Below are positions 12,001-34,383 of a stretch of 39,557 nt of DNA, piece after piece (position 1 is the stretch's first letter; each line of letters opens with the position of its first letter). Both the position numbers and the translations under genes were made by a program. The DNA lies in assembly GCA_002245135.1 (NCBI GenBank), contig NGBS01001220.1:1-39557 (forward strand), given 5' to 3'. The DNA is from Proteromonas lacertae. Its lineage: Eukaryota. The notes below the pieces were generated by a model. It was not told where the DNA came from and made no database searches. It saw only the letters and a list, made by a program, of their open reading frames with translations.

Positions 12001-12507
12001 TAAATGATGAAAATGAATTAGATAATAATAATAATATAAAAGAAAAGAAGATCGAAATGGAGAAATTGAAGATAATTGATATGAGATTCGTAGGTCATGA
12101 TAGCCATAAAGAAGATAAAGATATAATAGGAAGTGCTCGTAGTTTTATAGTTTATCGATTAGAAATGATAAGTGAGAATAATGTTTATAGTTTTAATACA
12201 TTTAAAAGATGGAGTCAATTACAATGGTTATTCGATAAACTTCATAGTTTAGATAAAAATATAAAAATTCCCAAAGAAAATCTATTTAAAGCGTTTGGAA
12301 CAAGTATGAAATATATATATTATAATTATATTCTGAATAGAAGTTCATTTAAAATCGAAAGATGATAGTGGTTTAATAAAAGAAAGATCTGAAGCGATAA
12401 TTCATAATATAGAAGTAATAAAGAAGAATAAATGGTTAGAGAGTAATACTATGTTGATAAATTTCTTGAAAGAAGATGCAATAAATGTGAAAAGAATAAG
12501 TGAATGA
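1..12507 (+). CDS. VPS13: VPS13-family bridge-like lipid transfer protein (5' end outside window; multi-exon; a few probable sequencing frameshifts)
   Basis: Chorein_N-type N-terminus (LNLSIW..GDVELKNL|SIKPDALKDLNLPIQVKAGFLGKLVLKVPWKN; QVQINRIHIRFED), WWKFAY motif, FEPLIEKW, VAB-type repeats (PKYWVWNRS, YAWKEP) and the VPS13 C-terminal signature (GSLDVIGNPFGLVKNIGIGFRDLFYEP; GVVGLAARPVAG). Short GT-AG introns (e.g. 45-79 and near 936-968, 1705, 1905, 2325, 2647, 3250, 10891, 11430, 12305) join the ORF fragments. Stop TGA at 12505-12507. Single-base deletions near 18, 461 and 3904. Confidence 0.95.
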
Positions 12508-12567
12508 GATGTTTGAATAATAAAAATATAACAATAATAATATTTGATTAATAATAGAATTGTATTT

Positions 12568-15500
12568 TTATAAATTGTCATTTACTTTTTTCAACATTTC
12601 TTCAAATTCTATCCTTTGAAATTCATCTTCAACACTGGATATATATTTACTTGCTTCATTCAAATATTTCTTTGATTCTTCATAATCTTTCTATTTTCAT
12701 TATAATCACATTCATATATATACAATATCAAAATAACATTCACCCATTTCATTATTACATCTAAATCTCTCATAATCACTTTTAGCTAATTTTAATGCAT
12801 TATTATATTGTTCTTTAGCTTCATCAATAGTACCTAGCTTAAATAAATACTTACACACATATATATAATATAGGCATCTATCTTCATCTGATTCAGCAAA
12901 TTCAATTGCCGAAGTAATACAATTAAATGAGTTTTCATTATCATTCTATTAAAATAACAATTGAAATATATACAAAACCCAAATAACAATCACCTAAATT
13001 CATAAAACACATATATTTTTGTTTATTTGTTGATGATACTTCTAATGCAGATTTATAATAATCTAATGATTTTTCATACTCTTTCTATAATAAAAGTAAA
13101 TTAGACACTACTATACAATATTAAAATAGCATAAACCAATATTTAAATTGCAACTATAATTCTCTTCATCTGTTGATGCAAGATTTAATGCACATTCAAA
13201 ATAATCTTTTGCTTTTTCATATTCCCTCTATAATAATAATAATAATAATTGTTTATAATCATACAATCTTCAAATCACAAACACCTATTCTAAAGTTGCA
13301 TAAGTAAATCTTTTCATTTGTGGAAGCAAAGTCTAAAGCAGATTCTAAATATTCAATTGCTTTTTTAATTTTTCTCTATATTATCATTTATATCAAGTAT
13401 AATACTGCTAGTTCATAAAAATTACTGATAGTGAAACAACATTCGTATTTTTCTTCATTTTTAGAAGTGAATTGTAATGCAGACTTAAAATGTTCTAAGG
13501 AATCATTAAAATCACCCTATAATATGAATATTTTTATGGTTATACTAGATTGCCATAACACAATGCTATATGGTTGTTACATAAATATTTCATTCTGTTA
13601 ATATATTGCAAAGATTCTTCATCTAAAGGGTTAAGATGTTCTAATTCATAGAGATTCTCAAATGCAGTTTTAAAATATTTTATAGCTTGTTCATATTCTT
13701 CAACATTTGCACTACACAAACCAATATTAAAGTAACAATCACATTTTTCTCTATTTGTAAATGCAAAAACTAATGCTGATTCAAAACGCTCTTTAGATTC
13801 TTTAAATTGATTCTATACATTCATTTATACACAAAATTTATACTAGATTTCGATAACTTTCACCAATTTTGAATTTGCATTTAAATTTTTCATTATTTGT
13901 AGATGAATCATTTAGAGCAGTTACAAGGTATTCTATTGATCTTATATAATTCTTCTATAAAGAAATAATAGATAATATATTTACAGAGTTAAAACTTTCA
14001 CTTCCTCTTGTATAATTTTCAATGTATTTTTTTACTTTTGTAAGTTTTTCAATATATTCTTCATCTTCTATTGAGTATAAGAACTTGATTATTGAGTTGA
14101 TTGTATCCAGGTTGTTATGATCAATTAAATCAATCAGTATATGTAAATCATTTAGATATATTTCTTTGTTCTTTTTCAATTCTACTGCATCATCTTCACC
14201 ATATGGAGGATTCTTTTGATTTATTGAAGGAAAGAATTTCTATGATTTAAATAAATAAAGATATTTCTATACAATTGTTAATTCAATTTTCCAATACGAT
14301 GAGAATTCTTTATTGCTCATTTTAATGATTTCTTTTAATGTTTTACCTTCTATAAAACCACCTCCTAAATAAAAATTCAGAATTTTAGAATCACAAAAAG
14401 AAGTATCTTCACTTGTTCCATTATTCACTGAAGTTGAAGGTAATGTTGAATCATTATTAATATAAGCATTAACTTCTTTAAACATATCTTCAAATAATTT
14501 CTTATCATATGGATCTTCTACACCTGAAATATAAATATTTGCTTCATTCAAATGTTTCTTGGATTCTTCATAATCTTTCTATTCTCATTATAATAATCAT
14601 CATATTATATACAACATCAAAATAGCATTTACCCATTATATATTCACAACTAAATTTCTGATAATCAGTTTTGGCTAATTTTAATGCTTTCTTATATTGA
14701 TCTATAGCTTGATTATTAATACCAAGTTTAAATAAACATTCACACATAAACATAAAACATATAAGTCTATCTTCATCAGATTCAGCAAATTCTAATCCTG
14801 AGATATAAAATCCCAAAGCTTCTTTATATTCTTTCTATAATTATTATAACTGCATAAATTATACAAGATTCATATTAATACAACCTAAGTTTATACTACA
14901 TTTGTGTTTATTTTTTTTTATTATTGCAAATTTTGACGCAGATTTATAATACTCTATTGCTTTATCTAATTCATTCTATTGTATTATAAATAACAAATAA
15001 TCATACTAGATCTGCATAACATACACCTATACCAAACACACAATTGAATTTTTCTTCATCTGATTCAGCAAATTTTAATGCATCATTCAAATGTTCAATT
15101 GATTTTATATTTTCTTTCTATAAATCAATTTATATCAACTATTATACTTTCGATAAAAAATATCTACTTATATTAAGATAACATTCATATTTCTGTTTCT
15201 TTGTTGAGGAGAATTCTAATGCAGAATTAAAAGAATCAATTGCTCTGTCATATTCAAGCTATAACATTAATATCATCATAATTATACTATTGCAGAATAA
15301 CATTTACCTATAGTAGAATTACACTCATATTTATCTTCATTTGTTGAGGCTAATTCTAAGGCAGAATTTAAATAGCCAAATGCTCTGTCATATTCAAGCT
15401 ATAATATAAACAACTGTTAAAATCAATACTAAATATGTATAACACACACCAAGAGTGTAATTACTTTTGCATTTCTTGTTATTCATTTTAGATTTTGATG

Positions 15501-17354
15501 ATTCTGTTAAACTACAATCATTTTCTATTGAAGATATTATATCTAATGTAGTTTCTAAATAACTTATCGAATGTCTGTATTCTTTCTATCACATTAAATG
15601 AATAATTAGTTATACAAGAGCAGCATAACATAAACCAATATAAAAGTTACAATCACATTTTTCTTCTTTTGATGATGCAAAAACTAATGCAGATTCACAA
15701 TGCTTTAATGATTCTCTGAAGTAATTCTATCACATAAAATTCTTAAGAAACAATACAATTTCAAAATATGATTTACCTAGATTGTAATTACATTGGTGTA
15801 ATTCTTCATCTGTATTAGCATTCTTTAAAGCACATAATGAATATTCTATTGATTCTTTATTATCATTCTATGTAATAAATAATTCATAATAGTTATACAA
15901 CTTTATTATATAATTCTGCTAAATTAAAACAACATTTGAATTTATCTAATTTTGTATTAGCATTCTCTAAAGCAGATTTAAAACATTCTATTGCTTTTTC
16001 ATATTTTTGCTATAAAACAAGATAAACATCCTATATACATAATCAAAATATTTTGTAGCTTCTTCAAAATTTTCTTTGAATGTTTTTTCTTTTGTAAGTT
16101 TCTCCATATATTCTTTATCTTCTATTGAGTCTAAGAAGTTAATCATTGAGTTGAGTAGATCATCGTTGTTGTGATCTATTAAATTTATTAAGATATGTAA
16201 ATCATTTAGAAAATTGTCTTTATTCTTAATTAATTTTTTGGCGTCTTCTTTAGTATATGAAGGATTATCTTGACCTATTGAAGGAAAGAACATCTATTAT
16301 ATAAATGTATTTATGTTTTTATACAAATTTAAATTCATCTTTCCAGTAGGATGAAAATTCTTCTTGTTTTATATCACAATATTCTTTTAATGTTTTACCT
16401 TCTATATTACCTTTTCCTAAATAAAACGATAAAATTAATGAATAATATGATGAAAAACTAGCTAATTCGTTTGAAGCTTCAGCTATTGATGGTGAAGAAA
16501 ATGATGAATCACTTATAGAAGGAACAGGAGGAGTGTTTGATATTTTGTTTATTTCTTCTTCTATCTCATCAAGTTTTATTCTTTCATTCATATTTTTCTC
16601 TAACATTCGCTTTATTAATGCTTCTATTTGAGGAATTTTAACTCCACTTACTCTCACAAAATCTAATTCTGTTCTTAAAAATAAATTATTTATTATCTCC
16701 CTTTTGTTCTTTCCTTCAAAAGCCATTCTTAATGTATAAATCTCATATAAAATACATCCTAAAGCAAATATATCACTGGCTGATGAATAGGGACGAGGGA
16801 TTCTATTGGTTATTTCAGGAGCCATGTAACTATAAGTTCCTTTCAATACATCATCAGTACTATCAATTCCAGTTGCTAATCCAAAATCACTTATTATTAA
16901 TTCATTATGATCTCCTACTAAAATATTTCCTGGTTTTAAATCTCGATGAATTATTCCTTTACTATGAATATACTTTAAACCATTTATTAAATCTTTCATA
17001 TACATCATCATTTCCTAAAGATCATTAATATATCATCATATATACATTTACTGAGAAATCTTCTTTTTTATCTTTCTTTTCATCTATCAGCTTCCATAAA
17101 TCACCATTTTTTAAATACTCTGTGTATATATAGCATATATTTTCTTCTTCAATTATTACACTATCTTTTAGTATCAAGATATTTCGATCTCTCAACTCTT
17201 CTAAAATCTTTATTTCATTTTTTATTGTCTCTAAATATCCTGATTCTACTTTAATCTCTTTTCTAGCTAGCTTTAAACCATTATGTCTTACTAAACACAC
17301 TTTGCTAAAACCACCTTCTCCAATTGTTTCATATTTTTCATCATTTATTTTCAT
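12568..17354 (-). CDS. Array gene A: Ser/Thr kinase (NEK-like) + two tandem [OGFr-like + TPR-like array] modules
   Basis: Exon 1 17354-17046 (GEGGFSKV, ARK); intron 17045-17015; exon 2 17014-16325 (HRDLKPGN, DFG, APE, DIFALG, then FYLGKGNIEGKTLKE); intron 16324-16294; FFPS exon; eight single-repeat exons plus a double exon. The cap exon at 14578 reads on into a second linker/OGFr-like unit and a second repeat array, ending ...MLKKVNDNL* at 12568. Confidence 0.85.
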
Positions 17355-17416
17355 TATGCTCTTAAATCAAACTGTTATTTCTATGAGTTAAAAAACAGAA
17401 ATTTTATGATTTGAAG

Positions 17417-17435
17417 TCAAACCTAAGAATCAAGC
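17417..17435 (-). promoter_or_regulatory. Candidate upstream element, paired G(C/T)TTGA on the sense strand, before gene A
   Basis: + strand tcaaacctaagaatcaagc, ~63 nt upstream of the ATG; homologous elements lie upstream of all six array genes. Confidence 0.55.
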
Positions 17436-17609
17436 TTATATAACTCATATTCTTTTATATAGATGTAAACATAATTACTTTGGTATAATCAACTTTGATA
17501 GGTTAAATAAAATATCAAATTATTAAATACTGTTTGAATTAACCTAATAATAATAATAATAATAATAATAATAAGATTTATGATATTATTTAACAATAAA
17601 ATTGTGTTT

Positions 17610-20294
17610 TTATTTATAAGCATTTACTTTTTTCAACATTTCTTCAAATTCTTTTCTTTCTTCATCATCTTCTACACTTGATATGTATTTACTTGCTTCA
17701 TTCAAATATTTCTTTGAAACTTCATATTCATTCTATTTTCATTAAAATAATCTTTTATACATTTTCAAAATAACATTTACCCAGTGTTTTATAACAAGTA
17801 AACTTTTCATAATCACTTTTAGCTAATTCTAATGCATTATTATAATGATCTTTTGCTTCATCAATAGCACCAATATTAAATAGACATTGGCAAAGATATA
17901 TATAATATAAACATCTATCTTCATCTGTTTCTGCATATTTAAAAGAATCTATAAAGAATTCCATTGATTTTTCATATTCTTTCTATAATATTTATAGTTA
18001 AAACAATTATACAAGTTTCAAATAATCATCACCTATGTTATTATAACAAGTAAATCTTTCCTTGTTTGAAGATGCAAGTTTCAAGGCTAAGTTATAATAA
18101 GAGATTGATTTTGTATAATCTTTCTATAATGTTTTATTATTGAACAATCATACTATATTTTTACAACAAACACCTAATAAAAAATAACAATCATATTTCT
18201 CTTCATTTGTTGAAGAATTTTCTAAAGCAGATAAATAAAACTGTATTGAGTTTTGGTATTGTTTCTATACATATACAATAACAAATACAATATAATAATA
18301 ACTATTCCCAATATAACATTTATGATTGTATTTATCATTATTAGAGACAGCATCTAAGGTATATTTTAAATAATCAATTGCTTTTTCATATTCTTTCTAT
18401 AGCAAATATAATATATTGACTTACCAAAGAATATAAATTTAGACCAATGCATGCTTTGCACAAATATTTTTGTTCATTTGTTTTGGCATTATCTAAAGCT
18501 AATTTATAAAATTTTGTTGAATTATCATATTCTGCCTATTATATATATAATTTCAACATTAATACAAGTTGTATATAACTTTTGCCTATTTTTGTATGAC
18601 ATTCATATTCTTGTTCATTTGTATTGGCATTATTTGAGGCAGATTTATAAAATGGAATAGATTCTTCTATTTTGCCCTATTCATTTATATATTATGATAA
18701 TTATACGACATTCACAAAACAATCACCTATATTTATACTGCAAGTATATTTTCTTTCATTTGTTTTGGCATTTTCTAAAGCTATTTTATAATGTTTGATT
18801 GAATTATCATATTCTGCCTATTAAACTTGTTATTGCAAATATTATACAAGTTGAGCATAACACCAACCAATTCTGTTTTCACAGTCATATTTTTCTTCAT
18901 CTGAAGAGACATTTTCCAATGCAGATTTTAAGCAATTAATTGATTTTCCACATTGTTTCTATAAGATTCATTACTTTATATGATAATACAAGTTGAACAT
19001 AACACTTACTAATATTTAGTCTACAGGTATATTTTTGTTCATTTGTTGAAGAATTTTCTAAAGCAGATTTAAAACATTCTATTGAATTATTATATTCTGC
19101 CTATTATATATATAATTTCAACATTAATACAAGCTGAAAATAACAAGTACCAATTTTCATTTCACATTCATATTTTCTTTCATTTGTTTTGGCATTTTCT
19201 AAAGCTATTTTATAATGTTCGATTGAGTTTTCATAGTCATTCTATTCAATATAAAATACTACAATTATACCTCTCTTTTATAAAATGAACCTAAGGTGTA
19301 ATAACCAATGAATTTATCTTCATCAGTTTCCGTATAATCTAATGCATTTAGTAAATACCCTTTGGATATTTCAAGTTCGTTCTACTCATTTATAATTATA
19401 AATAATTATACAAGATTCAAATAACACTTTCCTATATTTGAAATACATTTAAATTTTTCTTTCTTTGAAGTAGCATAATCTAAGGCAGTTTCTAAAATAT
19501 CTCTGGATTTTTCAAATTGCCTCTATACATTAGAAATATCCTTTACTCATACTCTATGAAAATAACATTCACCTATTTTATAATTACATTCACATTTTTC
19601 TTCATCTGTAAAGGAATTTTCTAGTGCTCTAGACATATATTTTATTGAGTTTTCATAGTCATTCTATTCAATTCATAGTTATATTTATCATACAACTATC
19701 AAATAGCATAAACCAATTTTGTAACTACTTTCATACTTTTCTTTATTTGTCAAAGAATTCTCTAAAGCTGTTATATAACATTTTATCGATGGCTCATATT
19801 CATGCTATAATAATACATTAAATATTCTTCTTATACCAAATTAAAATATCTATTTCCTTCATTATAATTATCTTCATATTCCATGTGTTTTCTTTCTTTG
19901 TTGAGTAGTTGTATATATTCTGTATCTTCTATTGTTTCTAAAAAATCTATTATATTGTCGAGATTATCTTTACTTTTGTCAATTAAATCAATCAATCTAT
20001 GTAAATCATTTAGATAAACATCTTTGTTATTCTTTAGCTCAGTTGAATCATCTTCAGTATAAGGAGGATTATTTTGTTTATGTGATGGAAAGAATCTCTA
20101 ATCATATTAACTACTAGATTTATATATACAATTACTAAATTATCATTCCAATATGAAGAAAACTCTTCTTTATCCATTTCAATAATCTCTTTTAAAGTCT
20201 TTCCATTAATAGCTGCACCTTTTAAATAAAATAACAGAATTACAGAATTACAATATAATAAATTTCCTGATTCTTCACTTGTAGTAGTAGTGGC

Positions 20295-20329
<35 letters not shown>

Positions 20330-21178
20330 CAGTTGATGCAGAAGGATATGATGTATCACTAATATAAGGAACAGGAGGAGCTGTGTTTGGTAATTTGTTT
20401 ATTTCTTCTATTTTGTCTTTTTCTTCATCAATTGTGTCTATCATATCTTCAATTTTATCAAGGTTTATTCTTTCACTTTCATCTTTTTTTAACATTTGCT
20501 TTATTAACTCTTCAATTTGAAAAAATCTTTTTCCACTTATTCTATCAAAATCTAATTCTTTCCCTGACTGTAACTCATTCTCTATTTCTTTTTCATTTCT
20601 TTCTTTAAATATAACATTCAATGTGTATATTTCATAAAATATACATCCAAGAGAAAATATATCACCAAATTCGTTACATCTAGAAGGTAAATTTAAGATA
20701 GAATCTTTAGAAATGTAATTTATCATTAATTCATTTCTTTTTCCTACTAAGATATTCTCTAGTGTCAATTCTTTATGATTTAATTCTATACTGTGAATAT
20801 ATTTTAATCCATTTACTAGATCCATCATACACTCAACTATTTCCTATAACAATTATACATATATTACTTCCAGTATACCTCTAAAGAGAAATCTTCACTC
20901 ATTTCTTTTCTTTTACTTATTACATCACATAAATTTCCCTTTTCAACGTAATCTGTGAATATATAACAAACATTTTCACTCTTAACAATCTCATAGTCTT
21001 TCATTCTCAAAATATACCTATCTTTCACAGTGATTAATTTTTCACATTCTCGTTTTACTAATTCTATGGATTTTGGAGTTATATTAAAGCCTTTCCTTGC
21101 CATTATCACTCCATTGCGATTTACTTTACATAATTTCTTCACATCGCCTTTTGCAACATTAGAAATAGCATTGTTCAT
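17610..21178 (-). CDS. Array gene B: pseudokinase + poly-Thr linker + OGFr-like + TPR-like array (13 single-repeat exons + double exon + cap)
   Basis: Kinase fold is recognisable (MARK, YIFTDYVEKGNL, GLKYIHS, ENILV, DIFSLGCIFYEI), but the Gly loop is lost, HRD is HKE, DFG is replaced by NYI and the activation segment/APE is deleted. ~141-nt exon+intron periodicity over 19805-18013. Stop TAA at 17610. Confidence 0.85.
18530..19240. repeat. Internal four-exon-period duplication in the TPR array of gene B (also in D)
   Basis: tctgcctattatatatataatttcaacattaatacaag, which includes a whole intron, occurs at 18531 and 19096 (offset 565, about 4 x 141). tttcatttgttttggcattttctaaagctattttataatgtt recurs at ~18754 and ~19178. 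Confidence 0.85.
20280..20330 (-). repeat. (ACT)n coding microsatellite giving the poly-Thr linker of gene B (copy at ~27613-27663 in D)
   Basis: gtagtagtag run on the + strand; translates as STATTTTTTTTTTTATTTTS. Confidence 0.9.
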
Positions 21179-21242
21179 CTTATAAGTGCTTTAATTGCAA
21201 AATATACCTCTCTTAAATGAAAAAGAAAATTAAAAAAAAGAT

Positions 21243-21260
21243 TCAAACCTGTAATCAAGC
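21243..21260 (-). promoter_or_regulatory. Same candidate element before gene B
   Basis: tcaaacctgtaatcaagc, ~65 nt upstream of the ATG; flanks are unrelated to those of gene A. Confidence 0.55.
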
Positions 21261-21343
21261 CTAGTTTTTCTTTTAAGAATAAATATTACTTAAAATAAAA
21301 AAGTATGAATAAGCTAGTTTGTATATATATTATGATAAATCTT

Positions 21344-23473
21344 CTATATTCTTATAATCTCTCCAAATTCTATTTTAAAACTATCTTCAACTATATTCCA
21401 CATATATTTACTCGATTCGTTTAGGTACTTCTTAAATTCTTCATATTTGCCCTATTTTATCAAATGCAAAATATATACCCTTTCAAAGAAACAGTTACCT
21501 ATTATAAAGTTACACCTAAATCTTTCATGGTCATTATTGGCTAATTTTAAAGATTCATTATATAGATAATTCGATTCTTCTACTGGATTGATGTTAAACA
21601 TATATTTACACATATTAATGTAATATAAACATTTGTCTTCATCTGATTCTGCAAATTCAAATGCTAAAATAAGATTATTCATTGCCTTTTCATCATTTTT
21701 CTATTATAATTTCATATTAAAATAATAATAAAACATACCATATTAAAATAACAATCACTTATACTCATATTGCATGTAAATTTTTCTCCATTTGTAGAAG
21801 CGCATTGAAAAGCATAATTATAATTTTCAATTGCTTGTTGGTAATGTTTCTATTATATATTATAAAAAACAATTATACCAAATTCCAATAACTATTGCCA
21901 ATATTTATATAGCAGGTATATTTTTCTTGATCTATTAAGGTGTTACCTAATACTGATTTATTATATTCTATTGAATCTTCAAGTTCATTCTAAATATTAA
22001 TTATATTAATAATATACACTATCCATACAACCACCATTTATACCAAAACTACATATATATATATCTTTATCTGTAGAATTGGCTTTTTCAAAGACATCTT
22101 TATAATATTCTATTGGTTTTTCAGTTTCATTCTATCATATAATAATAACATTACTTATCATAATAACAATACAGTAATAAAACACTTACCAAGATATACA
22201 ATACTGACACTTTTCTTTTCAATTTCAAATGCATTTTCTAAGGCAGATTTATAGTATTTTATTGAGTTTTCATATTGTTCCTAGTTAATATAGAAGTATT
22301 ATACAATATTCCAATAACATTCACCTATAATTGTGTTACATATGTATTTTTCTTCATTCTTAGAAGCATTCTCTAAGGCTGATAAAAAATAGTGTATTGA
22401 TTCTTGATAGTTATTCTATAATAATAACTGAAATAACTATACATTTATGAAATAACACATTCCTAAGCTATAAAAACAATAATAATTTTCTAATGACATT
22501 ATCATATTTACTTCTGCTTGTTGCTCATGAGTATATTCATTAATTTCAAAACTATTATGATCACTTTCTAAAGCAGATTTATAATAATTTATTGACCTTT
22601 CATATTCCATCTATTGATTAAAATAATAAGCATACCTTTTTGAAATATATATTACCCAAAAAATATTTGCTAATGAATATCTGAAAATTAATTTTCGTAA
22701 GATCCAATCCATTCAGAAAATATATTTTGGATTTTTCATACTCATTCTGTTACATCATAAATATAAAGATATAATACATTAATAAAATAATTAAATCCTA
22801 TTCGAATAAAACAGTAATATTTCTCTTTCTTTGTACAACAAGATTCCAATGCCATAGAAAAATATTCATCAGCTTTATCATTATCTTTCTACAATATAAT
22901 TAATACTACATATATACAAGATTCATAAAACACAATCCAATATGGTAATTACAGTCATATCTTTCTATTATTGTAGTATTAAATTCAAATGCAGATTTAT
23001 AAAACTGCATTGATTTATCATAGTCTTTCTATTATTTACATAACTATTCAACAATACAAGATTGAAATAACATTCTGCAATTCTGAAATGACATTCATAT
23101 TCCTCTTCTTTTGATGAAGTGTTGTTTAATGCAATTGTAAAACACTCTATAGAGGATTTATAATTCATCTATTAATAACAATATTATCATATATATTTAC
23201 ATACAAAATATAAATTCTTTTTCCCTTCCTCATAATTATCTTTATACTTTTTTTCTTTATTCAGCTTTTCTACATATTCATAATCTTCAATTGATTTTAA
23301 AAAGTTTAATATTTTGTTGAGATTATCTTTACCATGATCTATCAAGTCAATTACCCTATATAAATCATTTATAAAGCTATCTTTTCTGTTTTCCAATTTC
23401 ACTGCATATTCTTTAGTATATTCACTGCCTTTTTCATCCACTGAAGGAAATAACAACTATTTTTATGATTATA

Positions 23474-23510
<37 letters not shown>

Positions 23511-24544
23511 CCAAATAATCATCTTTCCAGAATGAAGAAAATTCTTCTAAATTCATTTTTCTAATTTCTTTTAGTGTTTTACCTTCTATATTCCCACCTC
23601 CTAAATAGAAATTGAGAATAAAAGAATCACAGTTAGAAGAAAAACTAGCTTCTTCACTTGATGTATTATCTATTGATGGTAATGGTAATGTTGAATTATG
23701 GCTAACATAGGCAATAGGAGGAGTATTTAACATTTGGATTACTTCTTTTTCTATTTCATCAATTTTTATTCTTTTATTGACATCTTTCTCTAACATTTGC
23801 TTTATTAATTCTTCTATTTGCTGGAATCTTATTCCACTTAACCTTCTAAAGCTCATTTTTTCATTATATTTTATCCTATTCTTTATAACTTCATTATTTT
23901 CTCCATCAAAAGCCATTCTTAATGTATATATTTCATAAAATACACAACCTAAAGCAAATATATCACTGGCTGATGAATAGGGACGAGGGATTCTATTGGT
24001 TATTTCAGGAGCCATGTAACTATAAGTTCCTTTCAATACATCATCATTATTTTCATTTTCAGTTGCTAATCCAAAATCACTTATTATTAATTCATTATGA
24101 TCTCCTACTAAGATATTTCCTGGCTTTAAATCTCGATGAATTATTCCTTTGTTATGAATATACTTTAAACCATTTATTAAATCTTTCATGTACATCATCA
24201 TTTCCTAAATATCATTGATATATCATCATATATACATTTACTGAGAAATCTTCTTTTTTATCTTTCTTTTCATCTATCAGCTTCCATAAATCACCATTTT
24301 TTAAATACTCTGTGTATATATAGCATATATTTTCTTCTTCAATTATTACACTATCTTTTAGTATCAAGATATTTCGATCTCTCAACTCTTCTAAAATCTT
24401 TATTTCATTTTTTATTGTCTCTAAATATCCTGATTCTACTTTAATCTCTTTTCTAGCTAGCTTTAAACCATTATGTCTTACTAAACACACTTTGCTAAAA
24501 CCACCTTCTCCAATTGTTTCATATTTTTCATCATTTATTTTCAT
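21344..24544 (-). CDS. Array gene C: chimeric Ser/Thr kinase + OGFr-like + TPR-like array (10 single-repeat exons + double exon + cap)
   Basis: Exon 1 matches gene A exon 1. HRDLKPGN/DFG/APE are intact. From ASDIFALGC onward it matches gene E. Repeat exons span 23168-21738. Stop TAG at 21344. Confidence 0.85.
23457..23508 (-). repeat. Intron lengthened to 52 nt by a (TA)n microsatellite (gene C; the copy in E is one unit shorter)
   Basis: (TA)n run follows the GT donor; the C/E offset changes from 7333 to 7331 across it. Confidence 0.8.
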
Positions 24545-24606
24545 TATGCTCTTAAATCAAATTGTTATTTCTATGAGTTAAAAAACAGAAATTTTATGAT
24601 TTGAAG

Positions 24607-24625
24607 TCAAACCTAAGAATCAAGC
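24607..24625 (-). promoter_or_regulatory. Same candidate element before gene C
   Basis: tcaaacctaagaatcaagc, a duplicate of the gene A upstream region. Confidence 0.5.
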
Positions 24626-24738
24626 TTATATAACTCATATTCTTTTATATAGATGTAAACATAATTACTTTGGTATGACCAAATTTAATAGGATAAATAA
24701 AATATCAAATTATTAAATACTGTTTGAATTACCCTACC

Positions 24739-24770
<32 letters not shown>

Positions 24771-24805
24771 GATTTATGATATTATTTAACAATAAAATTG
24801 TGTTT

Positions 24806-27627
24806 TTATTTATAAGCATTTACTTTTTTCAACATTTCTTCAAATTCCTTTCTTTCTAATTCATCTTCTACAATGATATACTTCATTGCTTCATTCAAGT
24901 ATTTCTTTGAATCTTCATATTCATTCTATTTTCATTAAAATAATCTTTTATACATTTTCAAAATAACATTTACCCAGTGTTTTATAACAAGTAAACTTTT
25001 CATAATCACTTTTAGCTAATCCTAATGCATTATTATATTGATTTATAGCTTCTTCAATAGTACCAATATTAAATAAACATTCACACATATTAATATAATA
25101 CAAACATCTATCTTCATCTGTTTCTGCATATTTAAAAGAATCTATAAAGAATTCCATTGATTTTTCATAATCTTTCTATAATATTTATAGTTAAACAGTT
25201 ATACCAATTTCAAATAATCATCACCTATGTTATTATAACAAGTAAATCTTTCCTTGTTTGAAGATGCAAGTTTCAAGGCTAAGTTATAATAAGAGATTGA
25301 TTTTGTATAATCTTTCTATAATGTTTTATTATTGAACAATCATACTATATTTTTACAACAAACACCTAATAAAAAATAACAATCATATTTCTCTTCATTT
25401 GTTGAAGAATTTTCTAAAGCAGATAAATAAAACTGTATTGAGTTTTGGTATTGTTTCTATACATATACAATAACAAATACAATATAATAATAACTATTCC
25501 CAATATAACATTTATGATTGTATTTATCATTATTAGAGACAGCATCTAAGGTATATTTTAAATAATCAATTGCTTTTTCATATTCTTTCTATAGCAAATA
25601 TAATATATTGACTTACCAAAGAATATAAATTTAGACCAATGCATGCTTTGCACAAATATTTTTGTTCATTTGTTTTGGCATTATCTAAAGCTAATTTATA
25701 AAATTTTGTTGAATTATCATATTCTGCCTATTATATATATAATTTCAACATTAATACAAGTTGTATATAACTTTTGCCTATTTTTGTATGACATTCATAT
25801 TCTTGTTCATTTGTATCGGCATTATTTGAGGCAGATTTATAAAATGGAATAGATTCTTCTATTTTGCCCTATTCATTTATATATTATGATAATTATACGA
25901 CATTCACAAAACAATCACCTATATTTATACTGCAAGTATATTTTCTTTCATTTGTTTTGGCATTTTCTAAAGCTATTTTATAATGTTCGATTGAATTATC
26001 ATATTCTGCCTATTAAACTTGTTATTGCAAATATTATACAAGTTGAGCATAACACCAACCAATTCTGTTTTCACAGTCATATTTTTCTTCATCTGAAGAG
26101 ACATTTTCCAATGCAGATTTTAAGCAATTAATTGATTTTCCACATTGTTTCTATAAGATTCATTACTTTATATGATAATACAAGTTGAACATAACACTTA
26201 CTAATATTTAGTCTACAGGTATATTTTTGTTCATTTGTTGAAGAATTTTCTAAAGCAGATTTAAAACATTCTATTGAATTATTATATTCTGCCTATTATA
26301 TATATAATTTCAACATTAATACAAGCTGAAAATAACAAGTACCAATTTTCATTTCACATTCATATTCTTGTTCATTTGTATTGGCATTATTTGAGGCAGA
26401 TTTATAAAATGGAATAGATTCTTCTATTTTGCCCTATTCATTTATATATTACGATAATTATACGACATTCACAAAACTATCACCTATATTTATACTGCAA
26501 GTATATTTTCTTTCATTTGTTTTGGCATTTTCTAAAGCTATTTTATAATGTTCGATTGAGTTTTCATAGTCATTCTATTCAATATAAAATACTACAATTA
26601 TACCTCTCTTTTATAAAATGAACCTAAGGTGTAATAACCAATGAATTTATCTTCATCAGTTTCCGTATAATCTAATGCATTTAGTAAATACCCTTTGGAT
26701 ATTTCAAGTTCGTTCTACTCATTTATAATTATAAATAATTATACAAGATTCAAATAACACTTTCCTATATTTGAAATACATTTAAATTTTTCTTTCTTTG
26801 AAGTAGCATAATCTAAGGCAGTTTCTAAAATATCTCTGGATTTTTCAAATTGCCTCTATACATTAGAAATATCCTTTACTCATACTCTATGAAAATAACA
26901 TTCACCTATTTTATAATTACATTCACATTTTTCTTCATCTGTAAAGGAATTTTCTAGTGCTCTAGACATATATTTTATTGAGTTTTCATAGTCATTCTAT
27001 TCAATTCATAGTTATATTTATCATACAACTATCAAATAGCATAAACCAATTTTGTAACTACTTTCATACTTTTCTTTATTTGTCAAAGAATTCTCTAAAG
27101 CTGTTATATAACATTTTATCGATGGCTCATATTCATGCTATAATAATACATTAAATATTCTTCTTATACCAAATTAAAATATCTATTTCCTTCATTATAA
27201 TTATCTTCATATTCCATGTGTTTTCTTTCTTTGTTGAGTAGTTGTATATATTCTGTATCTTCTATTGTTTCTAAAAAATCTATTATATTGTCGAGATTAT
27301 CTTTACTTTTGTCAATTAAATCAATCAATCTATGTAAATCATTTAGATAAACATCTTTGTTATTCTTTAGCTCAGTTGAATCATCTTCAGTATAAGGAGG
27401 ATTATTTTGTTTATGTGATGGAAAGAATCTCTAATCATATTAACTACTAGATTTATATATACAATTACTAAATTATCATTCCAATATGAAGAAAACTCTT
27501 CTTTATCCATTTCAATAATCTCTTTTAAAGTCTTTCCATTAATAGCTGCACCTTTTAAATAAAATAACAGAATTACAGAATTACAATATAATAAATTTCC
27601 TGATTCTTCACTTGTAGTAGTAGTGGC

Positions 27628-27662
<35 letters not shown>

Positions 27663-28511
27663 CAGTTGATGCAGAAGGATATGATGTATCACTAATATAA
27701 GGAACAGGAGGAGCTGTGTTTGGTAATTTGTTTATTTCTTCTATTTTGTCTTTTTCTTCATCAATTGTGTCTATCATATCTTCAATTTTATCAAGGTTTA
27801 TTCTTTCACTTTCATCTTTTTTTAACATTTGCTTTATTAACTCTTCAATTTGAAAAAATCTTTTTCCACTTATTCTATCAAAATCTAATTCTTTCCCTGA
27901 CTGTAACTCATTCTCTATTTCTTTTTCATTTCTTTCTTTAAATATAACATTCAATGTGTATATTTCATAAAATATACATCCAAGAGAAAATATATCACCA
28001 AATTCGTTACATCTAGAAGGTAAATTTAAGATAGAATCTTTAGAAATGTAATTTATCATTAATTCATTTCTTTTTCCTACTAAGATATTCTCTAGTGTCA
28101 ATTCTTTATGATTTAATTCTATACTGTGAATATATTTTAATCCATTTACTAGATCCATCATACACTCAACTATTTCCTATAACAATTATACATATATTAC
28201 TTCCAGTATACCTCTAAAGAGAAATCTTCACTCATTTCTTTTCTTTTACTTATTACATCACATAAATTTCCCTTTTCAACGTAATCTGTGAATATATAAC
28301 AAACATTTTCACTCTTAACAATCTCATAGTCTTTCATTCTCAAAATATACCTATCTTTCACAGTGATTAATTTTTCACATTCTCGTTTTACTAATTCTAT
28401 GGATTTTGGAGTTATATTAAAGCCTTTCCTTGCCATTATCACTCCATTGCGATTTACTTTACATAATTTCTTCACATCGCCTTTTGCAACATTAGAAATA
28501 GCATTGTTCAT
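24806..28511 (-). CDS. Array gene D: pseudokinase + OGFr-like + TPR-like array; near-copy of gene B with one extra repeat exon
   Basis: ORFs 28197-28511 and 27367-28161 are identical to 20864-21178 and 20034-20828. The offset to gene B shifts from 7192 to 7333 at ~26365-26505. Stop TAA at 24806. Confidence 0.85.
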
Positions 28512-28575
28512 CTTATAAGTGCTTTAATTGCAAAATATACCTCTCTTAAATGAAAAAGAAAATTAAAAAAAAGAT

Positions 28576-28593
28576 TCAAACCTGTAATCAAGC
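28576..28593 (-). promoter_or_regulatory. Same candidate element before gene D
   Basis: tcaaacctgtaatcaagc, a duplicate of the gene B upstream region. Confidence 0.5.
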
Positions 28594-28676
28594 CTAGTTT
28601 TTCTTTTAAGAATAAATATTACTTAAAATAAAAAAGTATGAATAAGCTAGTTTGTATATATATTATGATAAATCTT

Positions 28677-30806
28677 CTATATTCTTATAATCTCTCCAAA
28701 TTCTATTTTAAAACTATCTTCAACTATATTCCACATATATTTACTCGATTCGTTTAGGTACTTCTTAAATTCTTCATATTTGCCCTATTTTATCAAATGC
28801 AAAATATATACCCTTTCAAAGAAACAGTTACCTATTATAAAGTTACACCTAAATCTTTCATGGTCATTATTGGCTAATTTTAAAGATTCATTATATAGAT
28901 AATTCGATTCTTCTACTGGATTGATGTTAAACATATATTTACACATATTAATGTAATATAAACATTTGTCTTCATCTGATTCTGCAAATTCAAATGCTAA
29001 AATAAGATTATTCATTGCCTTTTCATCATTTTTCTATTATAATTTCATATTAAAATAATAATAAAACATACCATATTAAAATAACAATCACTTATACTCA
29101 TATTGCATGTAAATTTTTCTCCATTTGTAGAAGCGCATTGAAAAGCATAATTATAATTTTCAATTGCTTGTTGGTAATGTTTCTATTATATATTATAAAA
29201 AACAATTATACCAAATTCCAATAACTATTGCCAATATTTATATAGCAGGTATATTTTTCTTGATCTATTAAGGTGTTACCTAATACTGATTTATTATATT
29301 CTATTGAATCTTCAAGTTCATTCTAAATATTAATTATATTAATAATATACACTATCCATACAACCACCATTTATACCAAAACTACATATATATATATCTT
29401 TATCTGTAGAATTGGCTTTTTCAAAGACATCTTTATAATATTCTATTGGTTTTTCAGTTTCATTCTATCATATAATAATAACATTACTTATCATAATAAC
29501 AATACAGTAATAAAACACTTACCAAGATATACAATACTGACACTTTTCTTTTCAATTTCAAATGCATTTTCTAAGGCAGATTTATAGTATTTTATTGAGT
29601 TTTCATATTGTTCCTAGTTAATATAGAAGTATTATACAATATTCCAATAACATTCACCTATAATTGTGTTACATATGTATTTTTCTTCATTCTTAGAAGC
29701 ATTCTCTAAGGCTGATAAAAAATAGTGTATTGATTCTTGATAGTTATTCTATAATAATAACTGAAATAACTATACATTTATGAAATAACACATTCCTAAG
29801 CTATAAAAACAATAATAATTTTCTAATGACATTATCATATTTACTTCTGCTTGTTGCTCATGAGTATATTCATTAATTTCAAAACTATTATGATCACTTT
29901 CTAAAGCAGATTTATAATAATTTATTGACCTTTCATATTCCATCTATTGATTAAAATAATAAGCATACCTTTTTGAAATATATATTACCCAAAAAATATT
30001 TGCTAATGAATATCTGAAAATTAATTTTCGTAAGATCCAATCCATTCAGAAAATATATTTTGGATTTTTCATACTCATTCTGTTACATCATAAATATAAA
30101 GATATAATACATTAATAAAATAATTAAATCCTATTCGAATAAAACAGTAATATTTCTCTTTCTTTGTACAACAAGATTCCAATGCCATAGAAAAATATTC
30201 ATCAGCTTTATCATTATCTTTCTACAATATAATTAATACTACATATATACAAGATTCATAAAACACAATCCAATATGGTAATTACAGTCATATCTTTCTA
30301 TTATTGTAGTATTAAATTCAAATGCAGATTTATAAAACTGCATTGATTTATCATAGTCTTTCTATTATTTACATAACTATTCAACAATACAAGATTGAAA
30401 TAACATTCTGCAATTCTGAAATGACATTCATATTCCTCTTCTTTTGATGAAGTGTTGTTTAATGCAATTGTAAAACACTCTATAGAGGATTTATAATTCA
30501 TCTATTAATAACAATATTATCATATATATTTACATACAAAATATAAATTCTTTTTCCCTTCCTCATAATTATCTTTATACTTTTTTTCTTTATTCAGCTT
30601 TTCTACATATTCATAATCTTCAATTGATTTTAAAAAGTTTAATATTTTGTTGAGATTATCTTTACCATGATCTATCAAGTCAATTACCCTATATAAATCA
30701 TTTATAAAGCTATCTTTTCTGTTTTCCAATTTCACTGCATATTCTTTAGTATATTCACTGCCTTTTTCATCCACTGAAGGAAATAACAACTATTTTTATG
30801 ATTATA

Positions 30807-30841
<35 letters not shown>

Positions 30842-31871
30842 CCAAATAATCATCTTTCCAGAATGAAGAAAATTCTTCTAAATTCATTTTTCTAATTTCT
30901 TTTAGTGTTTTACCTTCTATATTCCCACCTCCTAAATAGAAATTGAGAATAAAAGAATCACAGTTAGAAGAAAAACTAGCTTCTTCACTTGATGTATTAT
31001 CTATTGATGGTAATGGTAATGTTGAATTATGGCTAACATAGGCAATAGGAGGAGTATTTAACATTTGGATTACTTCTTTTTCTATTTCATCAATTTTTAT
31101 TCTTTTATTGACATCTTTCTCTAACATTTGCTTTATTAATTCTTCTATTTGCTGGAATCTTATTCCACTTAACCTTCTAAAGCTCATTTTTTCATTATAT
31201 TTTATCCTATTCTTTATAACTTCATTATTTTCTCCATCAAAAGCCATTCTTAATGTATATATTTCATAAAATACACAACCTAAAGCAAATATATCACTTG
31301 CTGTTGAATATGGACGAGCTCCTTCATCCCATAACTCAGGAGCTATAAAATTTGGAGTTCCGTTTAGTAAATAATCAGTACTATCAATTCCAGTTGCTAA
31401 TCCAAAATCACTTATTATTAATTTTTTATGATTTCCAACTAAAATATTTCCTGGTTTTAAATCTCGATGAATTATCCCTTTACTGTGAATATATTTCAAT
31501 CCACTAACTAAATCTTCCATAAAATTAATTATTTCCTATATAATTTATTCATATTACTTCATTTATACTGTAAATGTAAAATCTTCATTTTTACTGATCT
31601 TCTCATCTATTAATTTCCCTAAATCTCCTTTCTTTACATATTCTGTGTATATATAACGCATATTTCCATCAATCTCATAATTTTTCATTAATAACACATT
31701 TGGATGATCCAGCTGCTGTAGAATACTAATTTCATTTTTAATAGCATCTTCCAATTGTTCTGTTATTTTTATTTCTTTTCTAGCTAGCTTTAAACCATTA
31801 TGTTCAACTAAACACACTTTGCTAAAAGCACCTTTTCCAATTATTTCATATTTTTCATCATTTGTTTCCAT
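28677..31871 (-). CDS. Array gene E: Ser/Thr kinase + OGFr-like + TPR-like array
   Basis: Exon 1 METNDEKYEIIGKGAFSKV...HPNVL; exon 2 HRDLKPGN, DFG, GTPNFIAPE. The 3' part is essentially identical to gene C at offset 7333. Stop TAG at 28677. Confidence 0.85.
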
Positions 31872-31932
31872 TATATTTTCAAACCTAATTGTTATTGTTA
31901 TCAGCTAAAAATTTAATTAAAAATTTTGATAT

Positions 31933-31951
31933 TCAAACCTAAGAATCAAAC
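31933..31951 (-). promoter_or_regulatory. Same candidate element before gene E
   Basis: tcaaacctaagaatcaaac, ~62 nt upstream of the ATG. Confidence 0.55.
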
Positions 31952-32071
31952 CTGCATTATTTACTCATTCATAATTATATGTGGTAATATTTAGACACTG
32001 CTTGACAAATCAAAAAAATCATTATAAAGCAACAAAAAACATTGATAGAAGCAAAGAGAATAATTATTTTT

Positions 32072-34383
32072 TTATTTATCATTCAATTTTTTAAATATTT
32101 CTTCTAATTCTCTATTTGACTCTTCATTTACACTTGATTTATATTTATATGCTTCACATAAATACTTCTTGGCATTTTCTATATCATTCTATTTTCAAAA
32201 TAATAATAATAATCATTATAGTATATATACTCTTTCAAAAAGAAGTTTACCCAATTTATAACTACATATAAATCTTTCAACATCTGTATTAACTGATTCT
32301 ATTGCTCTATTATAATTATCTACTGCATCATCTATCATACCAATACTATACAAACAAGCACACATATACATATTGCATAAGCACTTATCCTCATTCAATT
32401 CTACATATTCTAATGCTAAAAGTAGGTATTCCATAGATTTTTCAATATTATTCTATTATATTAACAATTCAAATAATCATACAAGTTTCAAATAACTTGC
32501 ACCTAAGTAGAAACAACATTCGTATTTTACTCTATTTAAGCATGGTAGTTCTAAAGCCCATTTGAAATGTTCTATTGATTTTTCATACTCTTCCTATTTA
32601 ATTATATAACCATTTAAAAACTTACCATATCATAATAACAATAACCTTTTTTATATTCAAATATAAAACACTCATCTTTTGTAAATATATCTTTCACTCG
32701 AGATGAAAAATTTTCTATTAATTGTTTATATTCGTTCTATTTATATATATATATATATATTATTAAAAATAAATATATACTAATTTGTTGTTACATATAT
32801 CAATATTTAATTCACAATTCTGTCTTTCTTCACTTGTTGTACATTTTTCTAGTGTTGATTGTAAATATTTCATTGACATTTTATTTTCTCTCTATCATAA
32901 TATTATTCATTATATTATACAAGAAAGGAACAATAGTTAGACATAATAGCTGAATAATATGAAAGCATTTTTTGTTTCGTTGTTGTATACTTTAATCCTT
33001 CTTCTAAATATTCTGTTGATATATCATATTCTTTCTATTATAATGTCTATAATTATATGCATACTAGAACTGAATAGCAAATAGCTATATCATAATAACA
33101 AGAGCTTTTTTCTATATCTACATAAGATACTTCCAATGCAGATTTAAAATAATCAATTGCTTTTATGTAGTCTTGCTATTAATTCATAAAGTCAAATATA
33201 TATACAACACTTTCATAGCATTTACCTAAATAGTAAATACATGAACATTTTTCTACATTTGTATAGGCAAATTGTAAAGCAGTAGTCAAACATTCTATCG
33301 ATTTTTCATTCTCTTTCTATTAAAAAAAAAGTATAAGTATTAATTACTATAATCATACAAGATTGTAATAACATCTTCCAATGTTAGAGTAGCAAAGACA
33401 TTTATTTTCATTTATATAGGCAGTTTGTAATGCAACTTGATAAAACTGTATAGATACTTCATATAATCCCTATTCAAAATAATAAACAACACTTATATAT
33501 ACCATTATTAAGTAATTTTCACCAATACTAGTATTACATTGAAATCTTTCTACATCATCAGTTGCCAACTCTACAGCTTTAAGTAAAAATTCTATTGATA
33601 CTTCACATTCACCCTATCAAATTGATAAATAAATGAATATAAAATACAAGATCCATATAACAAAAGCCAATTTTGCTACTACATTCATATTTTTCTTTAT
33701 TTGTAGATGCATATGTCAATCCACGATAAAAATACTCTAATGCTTTAGCATATTGTTTCTAATTGTATAATAGTAAAAAATAGATTTACTGTAGAGAAAT
33801 AGTTATCTCCTGTATTTATTAATGATTTACATGTTTCTTGATCTGTTTGGGTAATTAATATCTTAGTATTATCATTAGGTATTTCATTTACATCATATGA
33901 AGGTTTTAAATATTCCAATTCCCTTAAGATGTTTACTGGAGGTTGTTCATATTTTTCTATAGATCTTTTCACTTCAATCAGTTTTTCAACATATTCATTA
34001 TCTTCTATAGACGATAAGAAGTTTATCATTGAATTGACTACATCTTTGTTGTTTTTATCAATCAAGTCAATTAGTTTATGCAAATCATTTAAATATTTGT
34101 CCTTGTTATTCTTTAATTCTGCTACTTCTTCATTTGTATATGACGGTTCTACTTGGTTGATTGAGGGAAAGAATATCTATTGTATAAACAAATATAATAA
34201 ATGATATACAAATACAAAATCATTTTTCCAGAATGAAGAAAAAACTTCTGGCTTTATTTCAACAATCTCTTTTAAGGTTTTGCCTTCAATTACTCCATTT
34301 CTTAAATAAAAATTGAGTACTAAAGAATTATAGTTAAGAGAATAATTAGCTAGTTCACTAGATGCAACACAAGGTGGTAACAT
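32072..34383 (-). CDS. Array gene F: kinase-less member (OGFr-like + TPR-like array)
   Basis: Starts MLPPCVASSELANY...LNFYLRNGVIEGKTLKEI. An intron precedes the IFFPS exon, then nine single-repeat exons, a double exon and a cap ending FKKLNDK* at 32072. Only ~300 nt separate it from the WDR35 stop, so no kinase exons fit upstream. Confidence 0.8.

What the first reader, a model, noticed from the sequence alone, without database searches (positions are those of the whole stretch)
12690..33760. One repeat = one 111-nt phase-0 exon: cassette architecture allowing in-frame shuffling or skipping
Seen: a ~141-nt period made of a 111-nt exon plus a ~24-37-nt GT..AG intron, phase 0 in the exons I translated. 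An example in D is NDYENSIEHYKIALENAKTNERKYTCSINIGDSFVNV. The rough consensus is xxYExSIxxYxxALxxAxTNEEKYxCxxxIGxCYxNL, i.e. helix B + loop + helix A of a TPR-like unit, 3 aa longer than the canonical 34-aa TPR and with a recurrent C-x6-C. Any exon can be skipped, duplicated or swapped without a frameshift. The flanking VPS13 has a ~7-kb uninterrupted exon, so this intron density is specific to the repeats.
Basis: partly seen in the sequence, partly recalled or inferred. Interest (0 to 1): 0.85.

Follow-up and report, generated by a model that had tools for sequence, protein, structure and literature searches.

The report
Kinase genes with exon-per-repeat TPR arrays
Six clustered genes of an unidentified single-celled eukaryote are predicted to build their protein-binding repeats from one 141-base exon-plus-intron unit, and two near-identical gene copies differ by exactly one unit, likely through misaligned DNA recombination rather than alternative splicing.

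Summary
Six minus-strand genes (12568-34383) carry 37-residue TPR-like repeats; 59 of 77 array exons are 111 nt, all 96 modelled introns are phase 0 (median 30 nt), and a phase-blind splice model recovers 96 of 96. Five genes start with a kinase domain (three intact, two pseudokinases); all carry an unclassified helical linker domain. Arrays do change: two copies of one gene, made by a 7.3-kb tandem duplication, differ by one 141-nt unit. But that breakpoint lies inside an exon (nt 68-72), removing helix A, intron and helix B, i.e. one canonical TPR, not one exon. The other mapped junctions are also exonic, though too few to exclude intronic ones. No spare or inverted exons, no supported out-of-order swap between genes, no excess of amino-acid change. 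Exon skipping is untested (no reads) and unlikely with 30-nt introns. Best reading: an intracellular kinase-sensor family diversified by in-register unequal crossover, analogous to Ectocarpus NB-ARC-TPR and Tetrahymena 90-bp-exon LRR genes. The scan noted such arrays before on other DNA. New variant of a known kind.

The parts
32072..34383 (-). Gene A: no kinase; linker domain + 11 TPR-like units + cap; 13 exons, 631 aa predicted
28677..31871 (-). Gene B: Ser/Thr kinase with all five catalytic motifs + linker + 12 units + cap; 15 exons, 915 aa predicted
24806..28511 (-). Gene C: pseudokinase (no GxGxF, HRD, DFG, APE) + poly-Thr spacer + linker + 16 units + cap; 19 exons, 1055 aa predicted
   Evidence: kinase hit on the identical exons of C2
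21344..24544 (-). Gene B2: chimera with an E-like 5' end and a B-identical 3' end; intact kinase motifs; 15 exons, 917 aa predicted
17610..21178 (-). Gene C2: copy of C with 15 units instead of 16; 18 exons, 1019 aa predicted
12568..17354 (-). Gene E: intact kinase + two linker-TPR modules (10 and 9 units); 22 exons, 1378 aa predicted
23968..31298 (-). First copy of the ~7.3-kb tandem duplication
16778..23967 (-). Second copy of the tandem duplication (4818 nt at 99.9% and 2487 nt at 97.2% identity to the first), one 141-nt unit shorter
23948..23967 (-). Crossover window of the B2 chimera: 20 nt shared by B and E inside kinase exon 2 (nt 238-257)
26367..26507 (-). The 141 nt present in C and absent from C2: helix A of exon 8, the intron, and helix B + loop of exon 9 (placement uncertain by 5 nt)
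19170..19174 (-). In-register junction in C2 exon 8 (exon nt 68-72, 5-nt overlap): identical to C exon 8 before it and to C exon 9 after it
26274..26559 (-). Two-unit tract repeated 565 nt downstream (25709-25994) at 94.4% identity; both ends inside exons (nt 16, nt 19)
14273..14578 (-). Gene E exon 13: a terminal cap fused in one exon to the post-kinase spacer and first half of a second linker domain (inferred gene fusion)
12724..12945 (-). Example of the fixed 222-nt two-repeat exon that precedes the cap in all seven modules (also 14613-14834, 17761-17982, 21479-21700, 24954-25175, 28812-29033, 32231-32452)
13985..14239 (-). Example of the second half of the unclassified helical linker domain (also 16039-16293, 27170-27430, 30538-30789, 33922-34176)

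Best explanation
This is a tandem cluster of predicted kinase-linker-TPR genes whose repeat arrays grew from one 141-base unit and likely still gain and lose repeats by misaligned, in-register DNA recombination, with each gene likely spliced to one main product. Shown in the sequence: the 141-nt period, the open reading frames under an all-phase-0 splice model, the 7.3-kb duplicate, the one-unit difference with a mid-exon junction, and the fixed two-repeat cap. Inferred: an ancestral TPR-like unit carried a ~30-nt intron at the turn between helix A and helix B and was amplified with it; crossovers fall mostly in exons, which are 79% of the period and hold the conserved sequence, so a crossover near the conserved loop adds or removes a whole A-intron-B hairpin; in-register crossover keeps the frame whatever the intron phase, so phase 0 is mainly a mark of common origin; the same process between kinase exons duplicates, fuses and truncates genes. 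Inferred function: cytosolic sensors or adaptors, in which the TPR groove binds variable protein partners and the kinase or pseudokinase signals; non-self recognition is plausible by analogy but untested.
For: Period and models. One-unit indel with 5-nt in-register overlap at exon nt 68-72; a whole-exon loss would leave 20 or 27 mismatches. Two-unit tract ends in exons. Chimeric kinase with a 20-nt exonic crossover window and exonic fusion in gene E. Tree of 58 units: both cap units group across all five modules (98/98, 100/96); five supported groups join units of one module, one joins the two modules of gene E, one joins unit 4 of B and of C. The five most variable columns are TPR positions 9, 2, 12, 6, 13, positions that PMC1261162 (passages) places on the ligand groove. 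No hydrophobic stretch above 1.4. Six clusters of unnamed relatives (45-95 bits) have reading frames that run into a Val at homologous donor positions. Fungi and protists show 37 times more retained introns than cassette exons, and P. tetraurelia (25-nt introns) none (PMC2397502 section 7).
Against: Only three array breakpoints are mapped; introns are 21% of the period, so three exonic ends arise by chance about half the time (my arithmetic) and intronic crossover is not excluded. Beyond the two duplicate pairs, tests for mosaic units were not convincing (longest-run test global p 0.058 or more; 6 runs of 20 nt or more against 2.4 expected, p 0.07; change-point test best p 0.045 and 0.055). 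Units are old on average (57% nucleotide identity), so turnover may be slow outside gene C. pN/pS in 12 hand-picked close pairs is 0.70 at groove codons and 0.73 elsewhere: no sign of diversifying selection. The duplicate could be an assembly product; 36 of 55 tree branches are unresolved. Function rests on analogy only.
Confidence: 0.65

Rival explanations
1. The exons are splice cassettes: regulated skipping makes many isoforms with different repeat combinations, as reported for brown algal ROCO genes.
For: All array exons are symmetric phase 0; a skipped exon (helix B + next helix A) would leave an intact alternation of helices. Splice variants with different repeat sets are reported in Ectocarpus (PMC11378527, passages).
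Against: Skipping needs introns of 160-187 nt (44 exons examined); the longest modelled intron is 52 nt in the cluster and 41 nt in VPS13. Cassette exons track long introns across eukaryotes (PMC2397502). Splice sites are uniform (91 of 96 GTAT, 94 of 96 TAG).
Confidence: 0.08
2. Classical exon shuffling: whole exons move within and between genes by recombination in introns or by a dedicated or somatic mechanism drawing on spare cassettes.
For: Units do not cluster by gene more than shuffled labels (35 changes against 34.9); unit counts differ between modules; a 28-nt identical run joins a unit of C and one of E (global p 0.13).
Against: No hit on the opposite strand and none outside modelled exons; mapped breakpoints are exonic; no supported out-of-order pair between genes; the lack of clustering is also what an unresolved tree gives.
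Confidence: 0.1
3. The array is an old, mostly static product of exon duplication, and the apparent recent dynamics (7.3-kb duplicate, one-unit difference) come from assembly, for example two haplotypes joined in tandem or a chimeric molecule.
For: About 6 kb of the two copies differ only by two substitutions, one microsatellite indel and the 141-nt indel, while the last 1.2 kb differ at many sites; mean unit identity is 57%. No reads or genome were available to check.
Against: The join needs a jump between B and E across only 20 shared nt; B2 has 10 private differences in the first 160 nt of kinase exon 2; the 565-nt internal duplicate in C (94%) and the fusion in E do not depend on the large duplicate. 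Two joined haplotypes would still show a real one-unit allelic difference.
Confidence: 0.17

Closest known systems
Ectocarpus NB-ARC-TPR candidate immune receptors (Zambounis et al., PMC3341825; abstract, passages and section 27 read)
   Same: One TPR period per exon, clustered genes with birth and death, variable repeat number, a signalling domain ahead of the array.
   Different: There the exons encode 42 aa behind an NB-ARC domain, introns hold inactivated spare exons and positive selection is reported. Here 37 aa, kinase or pseudokinase plus an unclassified linker, 30-nt introns with no spare exons, no selection signal.
Tetrahymena 90-bp-exon LRR genes (Xiong et al., PMC6564038; abstract and sections 17, 25 read)
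   Same: Arrays of fixed-length exons with one intron phase, read as clonal origin; repeat number changed by unequal crossing over; some fused to protein kinase domains. This is the closest match in mechanism.
   Different: LRR, phase 2, thousands of genes, near-identical exons shared between distant genes and a linked retrotransposon. Here TPR-like, phase 0, one cluster seen, no supported exchange between genes.
Brown algal LRR-ROCO genes (Teng et al., PMC11378527; abstract and passages)
   Same: One repeat per exon; proposed receptor repertoire.
   Different: 72-nt phase-2 exons with annotated splice variants; no such evidence here. The related Plant J 2023 paper on NB-ARC-TPR splicing was seen only as a title in this paper's reference list.
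Cortactin/HS1 actin-binding repeats (PMC554100; passages)
   Same: 37-aa repeats on 111-nt exons, with repeat loss and alternative splicing in vertebrates.
   Different: Only the lengths coincide: a different repeat family in animals; no homology was suggested by any search here.
Fungal NLR TPR/WD/ANK repeat arrays (search listing only; details recalled)
   Same: Repeat number and order changed by unequal crossing over in sensor proteins.
   Different: Those repeats are highly similar within a gene (recalled); here mean identity is 57%, and there is no NOD.

Membership tests
TPR repeat | Alternating antiparallel helices A and B | tested here: met
   AlphaFold2 model of a 222-nt exon, pLDDT 89.6, four helices
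TPR repeat | Consensus small/large residues at positions 7, 8, 11, 20, 24, 27 (positions recalled) | tested here: met
   I/L/M 49, G 38, Y 34, S/A 50, Y/F/L 46, A 43 of 51 units, register
TPR repeat | 34-residue period | tested here: not met
   Period is 37; the three extra residues lengthen helix A. Filed as TPR-like variant.
TPR repeat | Score above a curated Pfam TPR cut-off, or a significant fold match | tested here: inconclusive
   5 of 6 two-repeat exons hit TPR families, best 25.0 bits (E 1.5e-5) against a 27.8 cut-off; only single exons could be scanned; Foldseek lists TPR proteins at E 0.3 and above
Ectocarpus NB-ARC-TPR shuffling system | NB-ARC domain | tested here: not met
   Pfam scans of the long exons give kinase only; the models leave no room for it
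Ectocarpus NB-ARC-TPR shuffling system | One repeat period per exon | tested here: met
   69 of 77 array exons hold one repeat
Ectocarpus NB-ARC-TPR shuffling system | Inactivated or inverted spare exons in introns | tested here: not met
   0 tblastn hits on the other strand and 0 outside modelled exons, in this window only
Ectocarpus NB-ARC-TPR shuffling system | Diversifying selection on repeat exons | tested here: inconclusive
   pN/pS 0.70 at groove codons, 0.73 elsewhere, 12 pairs, uncorrected
Ectocarpus NB-ARC-TPR shuffling system | Splice variants with different repeat sets | not testable with these tools
   No run was listed
Tetrahymena 90-bp-exon LRR genes | LRR on 90-nt phase-2 exons | tested here: not met
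   TPR-like, 111 nt, phase 0
Tetrahymena 90-bp-exon LRR genes | Repeat number differs between close paralogues through ectopic recombination | tested here: met
   C has 16 units, C2 15; subject to the assembly caveat
Tetrahymena 90-bp-exon LRR genes | Near-identical exons shared between distant genes; linked retrotransposon | not testable with these tools
   No whole genome is held
Active Ser/Thr protein kinase | GxGxF, AxK, HRDxKxxN, DFG, APE motifs | tested here: met
   5 of 5 motifs in B, B2, E; 1 of 5 in C and C2 (pseudokinases); none in A
RhoGAP (for the linker domain) | Pfam PF00620 above cut-off or fold match | tested here: inconclusive
   Weak hits in 3 of 5 linker exons, E 0.004-0.08, below the 24.5-bit cut-off; not among the 50 listed fold matches
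OGFr-like / DUF1810 (for the linker domain; a recalled resemblance) | Pfam hit or clear fold match | tested here: inconclusive
   No Pfam hit on the intron-free relative P0009; 2jek (Rv1873) at Z 4.2, rmsd 4.3, 102 aligned, rank 12, within the noise range

The most novel reading that the evidence does not exclude
An unplaced flagellate runs an actively diversifying intracellular non-self sensor family in which the conserved loop of each repeat is a crossover hot spot, so that whole intron-centred TPR hairpins, with their ligand-facing helix, are swapped against new neighbours, and paired kinase and pseudokinase genes signal through an undescribed helical domain: a third, independent protist route to a variable receptor repertoire.
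Probability: 0.2. Interest if true: 0.7.

Novelty: new variant of a known kind. Interest (0 to 1): 0.45.

Why it matters
Repeat-per-exon arrays are usually read as exon-shuffling or exon-skipping devices. This locus holds a one-unit change caught between two near-identical copies, and its junction is inside an exon, so it offers a direct test of whether introns matter for the shuffling or are passengers of repeat amplification. It also adds an apparently undescribed kinase-linker-TPR family, with kinase/pseudokinase neighbours and an unclassified domain, from a eukaryote whose WDR35 is at most 53% identical to anything found, a candidate sensor system in a poorly sampled lineage.

Tried and rejected
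No whole genome is held. No sequencing run was listed for 12500-17400, so splicing and copy number were not tested; this is no evidence either way. Searches for related DNA found nothing in metagenome contigs or viral contigs. Word-indexed protein searches with the linker found nothing; the full HMMER scan found 9 proteins at E up to 0.001, of which 7 are true-looking relatives and 2 (P0007, P0008) are unrelated repeat proteins that I dropped. The Atlas gave no usable hit for the linker. PDB sequence, PHROGs, phage tblastn and both fold searches did not place the linker; its model is confident only over about residues 130-230. The WDR35 search did not place the organism: best hits 46-53% across many eukaryote groups. 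A non-standard genetic code was set aside because a 2349-codon VPS13 frame is open under the standard code. The first, looser splice model added false small introns and was replaced. The WDR35 5' model is unreliable and was not used as a control. Within-exon against across-intron linkage of half-units was weak both ways (rho 0.11 and 0.15). Literature searches found no description of this family or of 111-nt TPR exons; the library lacks most subscription papers, and no supplements were opened. PMC12862383 (passages) was only loosely relevant.
Full report
Setting. The window is AT-rich eukaryotic DNA (22-36% GC) read with the standard code. A VPS13 gene lies on the left and a WDR35/IFT121 gene on the right, which suggests a flagellated organism (inference). 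WDR35 is at most 53% identical to any protein found, with hits spread over many groups, so the lineage is unplaced. No genome and no reads were available.

Observation. The region has an autocorrelation peak at 141 nt that the flanks lack. Six minus-strand genes can be modelled: A (34383-32072), B (31871-28677), C (28511-24806), B2 (24544-21344), C2 (21178-17610), E (17354-12568). All 96 introns are phase 0 and 24-52 nt long; retention of any of them gives a stop (78) or a frameshift alone (18). A model blind to phase and exon length returns exactly these 96 at strict penalties, and 92 plus extras at loose ones. Of 65 non-duplicated introns, 22 have some in-frame rival GT..AG within 12 nt, but only 3 have a rival of the usual type, none in the arrays. 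Of 77 array exons 59 are 111 nt. VPS13 has 12 modelled introns of mixed phase and a fifth of the intron density. Unnamed relatives give outside support for the donors: in six clusters the reading frame passes into a Val at the position of a modelled donor; whether they come from the same species is unknown.

Proteins. B, B2 and E have intact Ser/Thr kinase motifs, C and C2 are pseudokinases, A has no kinase; the kinase has no clear subfamily (best PDB sequence hits PLK4, PLK2, NEK1 at similar scores). Each gene then has a helical domain of about 100 residues that no search placed, the array, a fixed two-repeat exon and a cap. The repeat is TPR-like: Pfam register puts the intron between TPR positions 14 and 15, at the A-to-B turn, and the model shows helix B, loop, long helix A per exon. 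So the exon is out of register with the TPR: the canonical hairpin is centred on the intron. The most variable columns are TPR positions 9, 2, 12, 6, 13, the ligand groove according to PMC1261162; this is true of TPRs in general and is not proof of selection. No membrane segment is predicted by hydropathy.

How the arrays change. A 7.3-kb segment is duplicated in tandem. Its junction is a 20-nt window inside kinase exon 2, making B2 a chimera of E and B. The copies C and C2 differ by exactly 141 nt. C2 exon 8 equals C exon 8 over nt 1-72 and C exon 9 from nt 68; loss of a whole exon would leave 20 or 27 mismatches. The missing piece is helix A, intron, helix B: one TPR. A two-unit tract in C recurs 565 nt away at 94% identity with both ends in exons. 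Gene E joins a cap to a second linker inside one exon. All mapped junctions are exonic, but three array ends are too few to exclude intronic crossover. In a tree of 58 units (B2 and C2 left out), 9 of 55 branches are supported: the two cap units across all modules, five groups within a module, one between the modules of E, and unit 4 of B with unit 4 of C. There is no supported out-of-order exchange between genes and no spare or inverted exon. Tests for further mosaics were marginal and pN/pS was about 0.7 at groove and other codons alike.

Skipping. It would need introns of 160-187 nt, three times the longest modelled here. Across 42 eukaryotes cassette exons track long introns, and P. tetraurelia with 25-nt introns showed none (PMC2397502). 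Untested here.

Mechanism. Most likely (0.65) an intron-bearing TPR-like unit was amplified, and in-register unequal crossover still alters unit number and gene content, each gene giving one main transcript. Frame is kept by register, so phase 0 is mostly a sign of shared origin. Rivals: static array with an assembly-made duplicate (0.17), classical exon shuffling (0.10), regulated skipping (0.08). The function, a cytosolic sensor or adaptor with kinase output, possibly for non-self recognition, is inferred from architecture and analogy.

Comparison. The layout works like Ectocarpus NB-ARC-TPR genes (PMC3341825) and, in mechanism, like Tetrahymena 90-bp-exon LRR genes (PMC6564038), but it is a member of neither family. 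Four literature searches found no account of this family. The scan's notes list similar arrays on other DNA and supplied two paper leads; nothing was noted for this genome or this sequence. Verdict: real, a new variant of a known kind, interest 0.45.

Noticed in passing
window, 40-90 nt upstream of the starts at 34383, 31871, 28511, 24544, 21178, 17354; similar at 38328 (-) and 38469 (+): By eye, a short TTGA-containing motif followed by a T-rich stretch precedes all six genes, and something like it precedes WDR35 and its divergent neighbour; possibly a core promoter element or a 5' UTR intron. My one regex matched only the C and C2 copies.
   Followed up: partly
window 12568-34383: All 44 of 96 introns whose length is a multiple of three contain an in-frame stop, mostly because a phase-0 intron ending in TAG carries its own stop; the modal 30-nt intron is therefore visible to nonsense-mediated decay if retained.
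   Followed up: partly
P0017 and P0009 (unnamed records): A relative has kinase, then two linker domains without an internal intron, separated by an unrelated segment and with no TPR in the sequence held; the linker is thus a module that occurs without the array.
   Followed up: partly
P0006, P0012, P0013 (unnamed records): These relatives run from the linker into the first repeat without the intron found in the window, then stop or drift at the next donor position.
   Followed up: partly
window 13546-13812, 15430-15585, 29776-29943: Array exons of 267, 156 and 168 nt carry in-frame insertions of 15-19 residues in the loop; the 267-nt exon also lacks an internal intron.
   Followed up: no
window 24047-24190 against 16857-17000 and 31378-31521: In kinase exon 2, B2 differs from both B and E at 10 sites, five of them clustered at nt 146-158, which suggests a conversion patch between B and E or a third template.
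   Followed up: partly
window 17610-18015 against 24806-25207 and 12568-12945: The 3' ends of C and C2 differ at many sites that alternate in matching gene E (7 sites C2=E, 7 sites C=E, 2 neither, in the 222-nt exon).
   Followed up: partly
window 20281-20333 and 27614-27666: A GTA triplet repeat encodes a poly-Thr spacer between pseudokinase and linker in C2 and C.
   Followed up: no
window 38469-39557: A plus-strand gene with a long Glu/Lys/Arg-rich low-complexity stretch starts about 140 nt from the WDR35 start, head to head.
   Followed up: no
window 1-12506: VPS13 runs off the left end of the window; the modelled part is about 4020 aa with VAB and C-terminal Pfam hits. Its stop lies about 60 nt from the stop of gene E.
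   Followed up: partly
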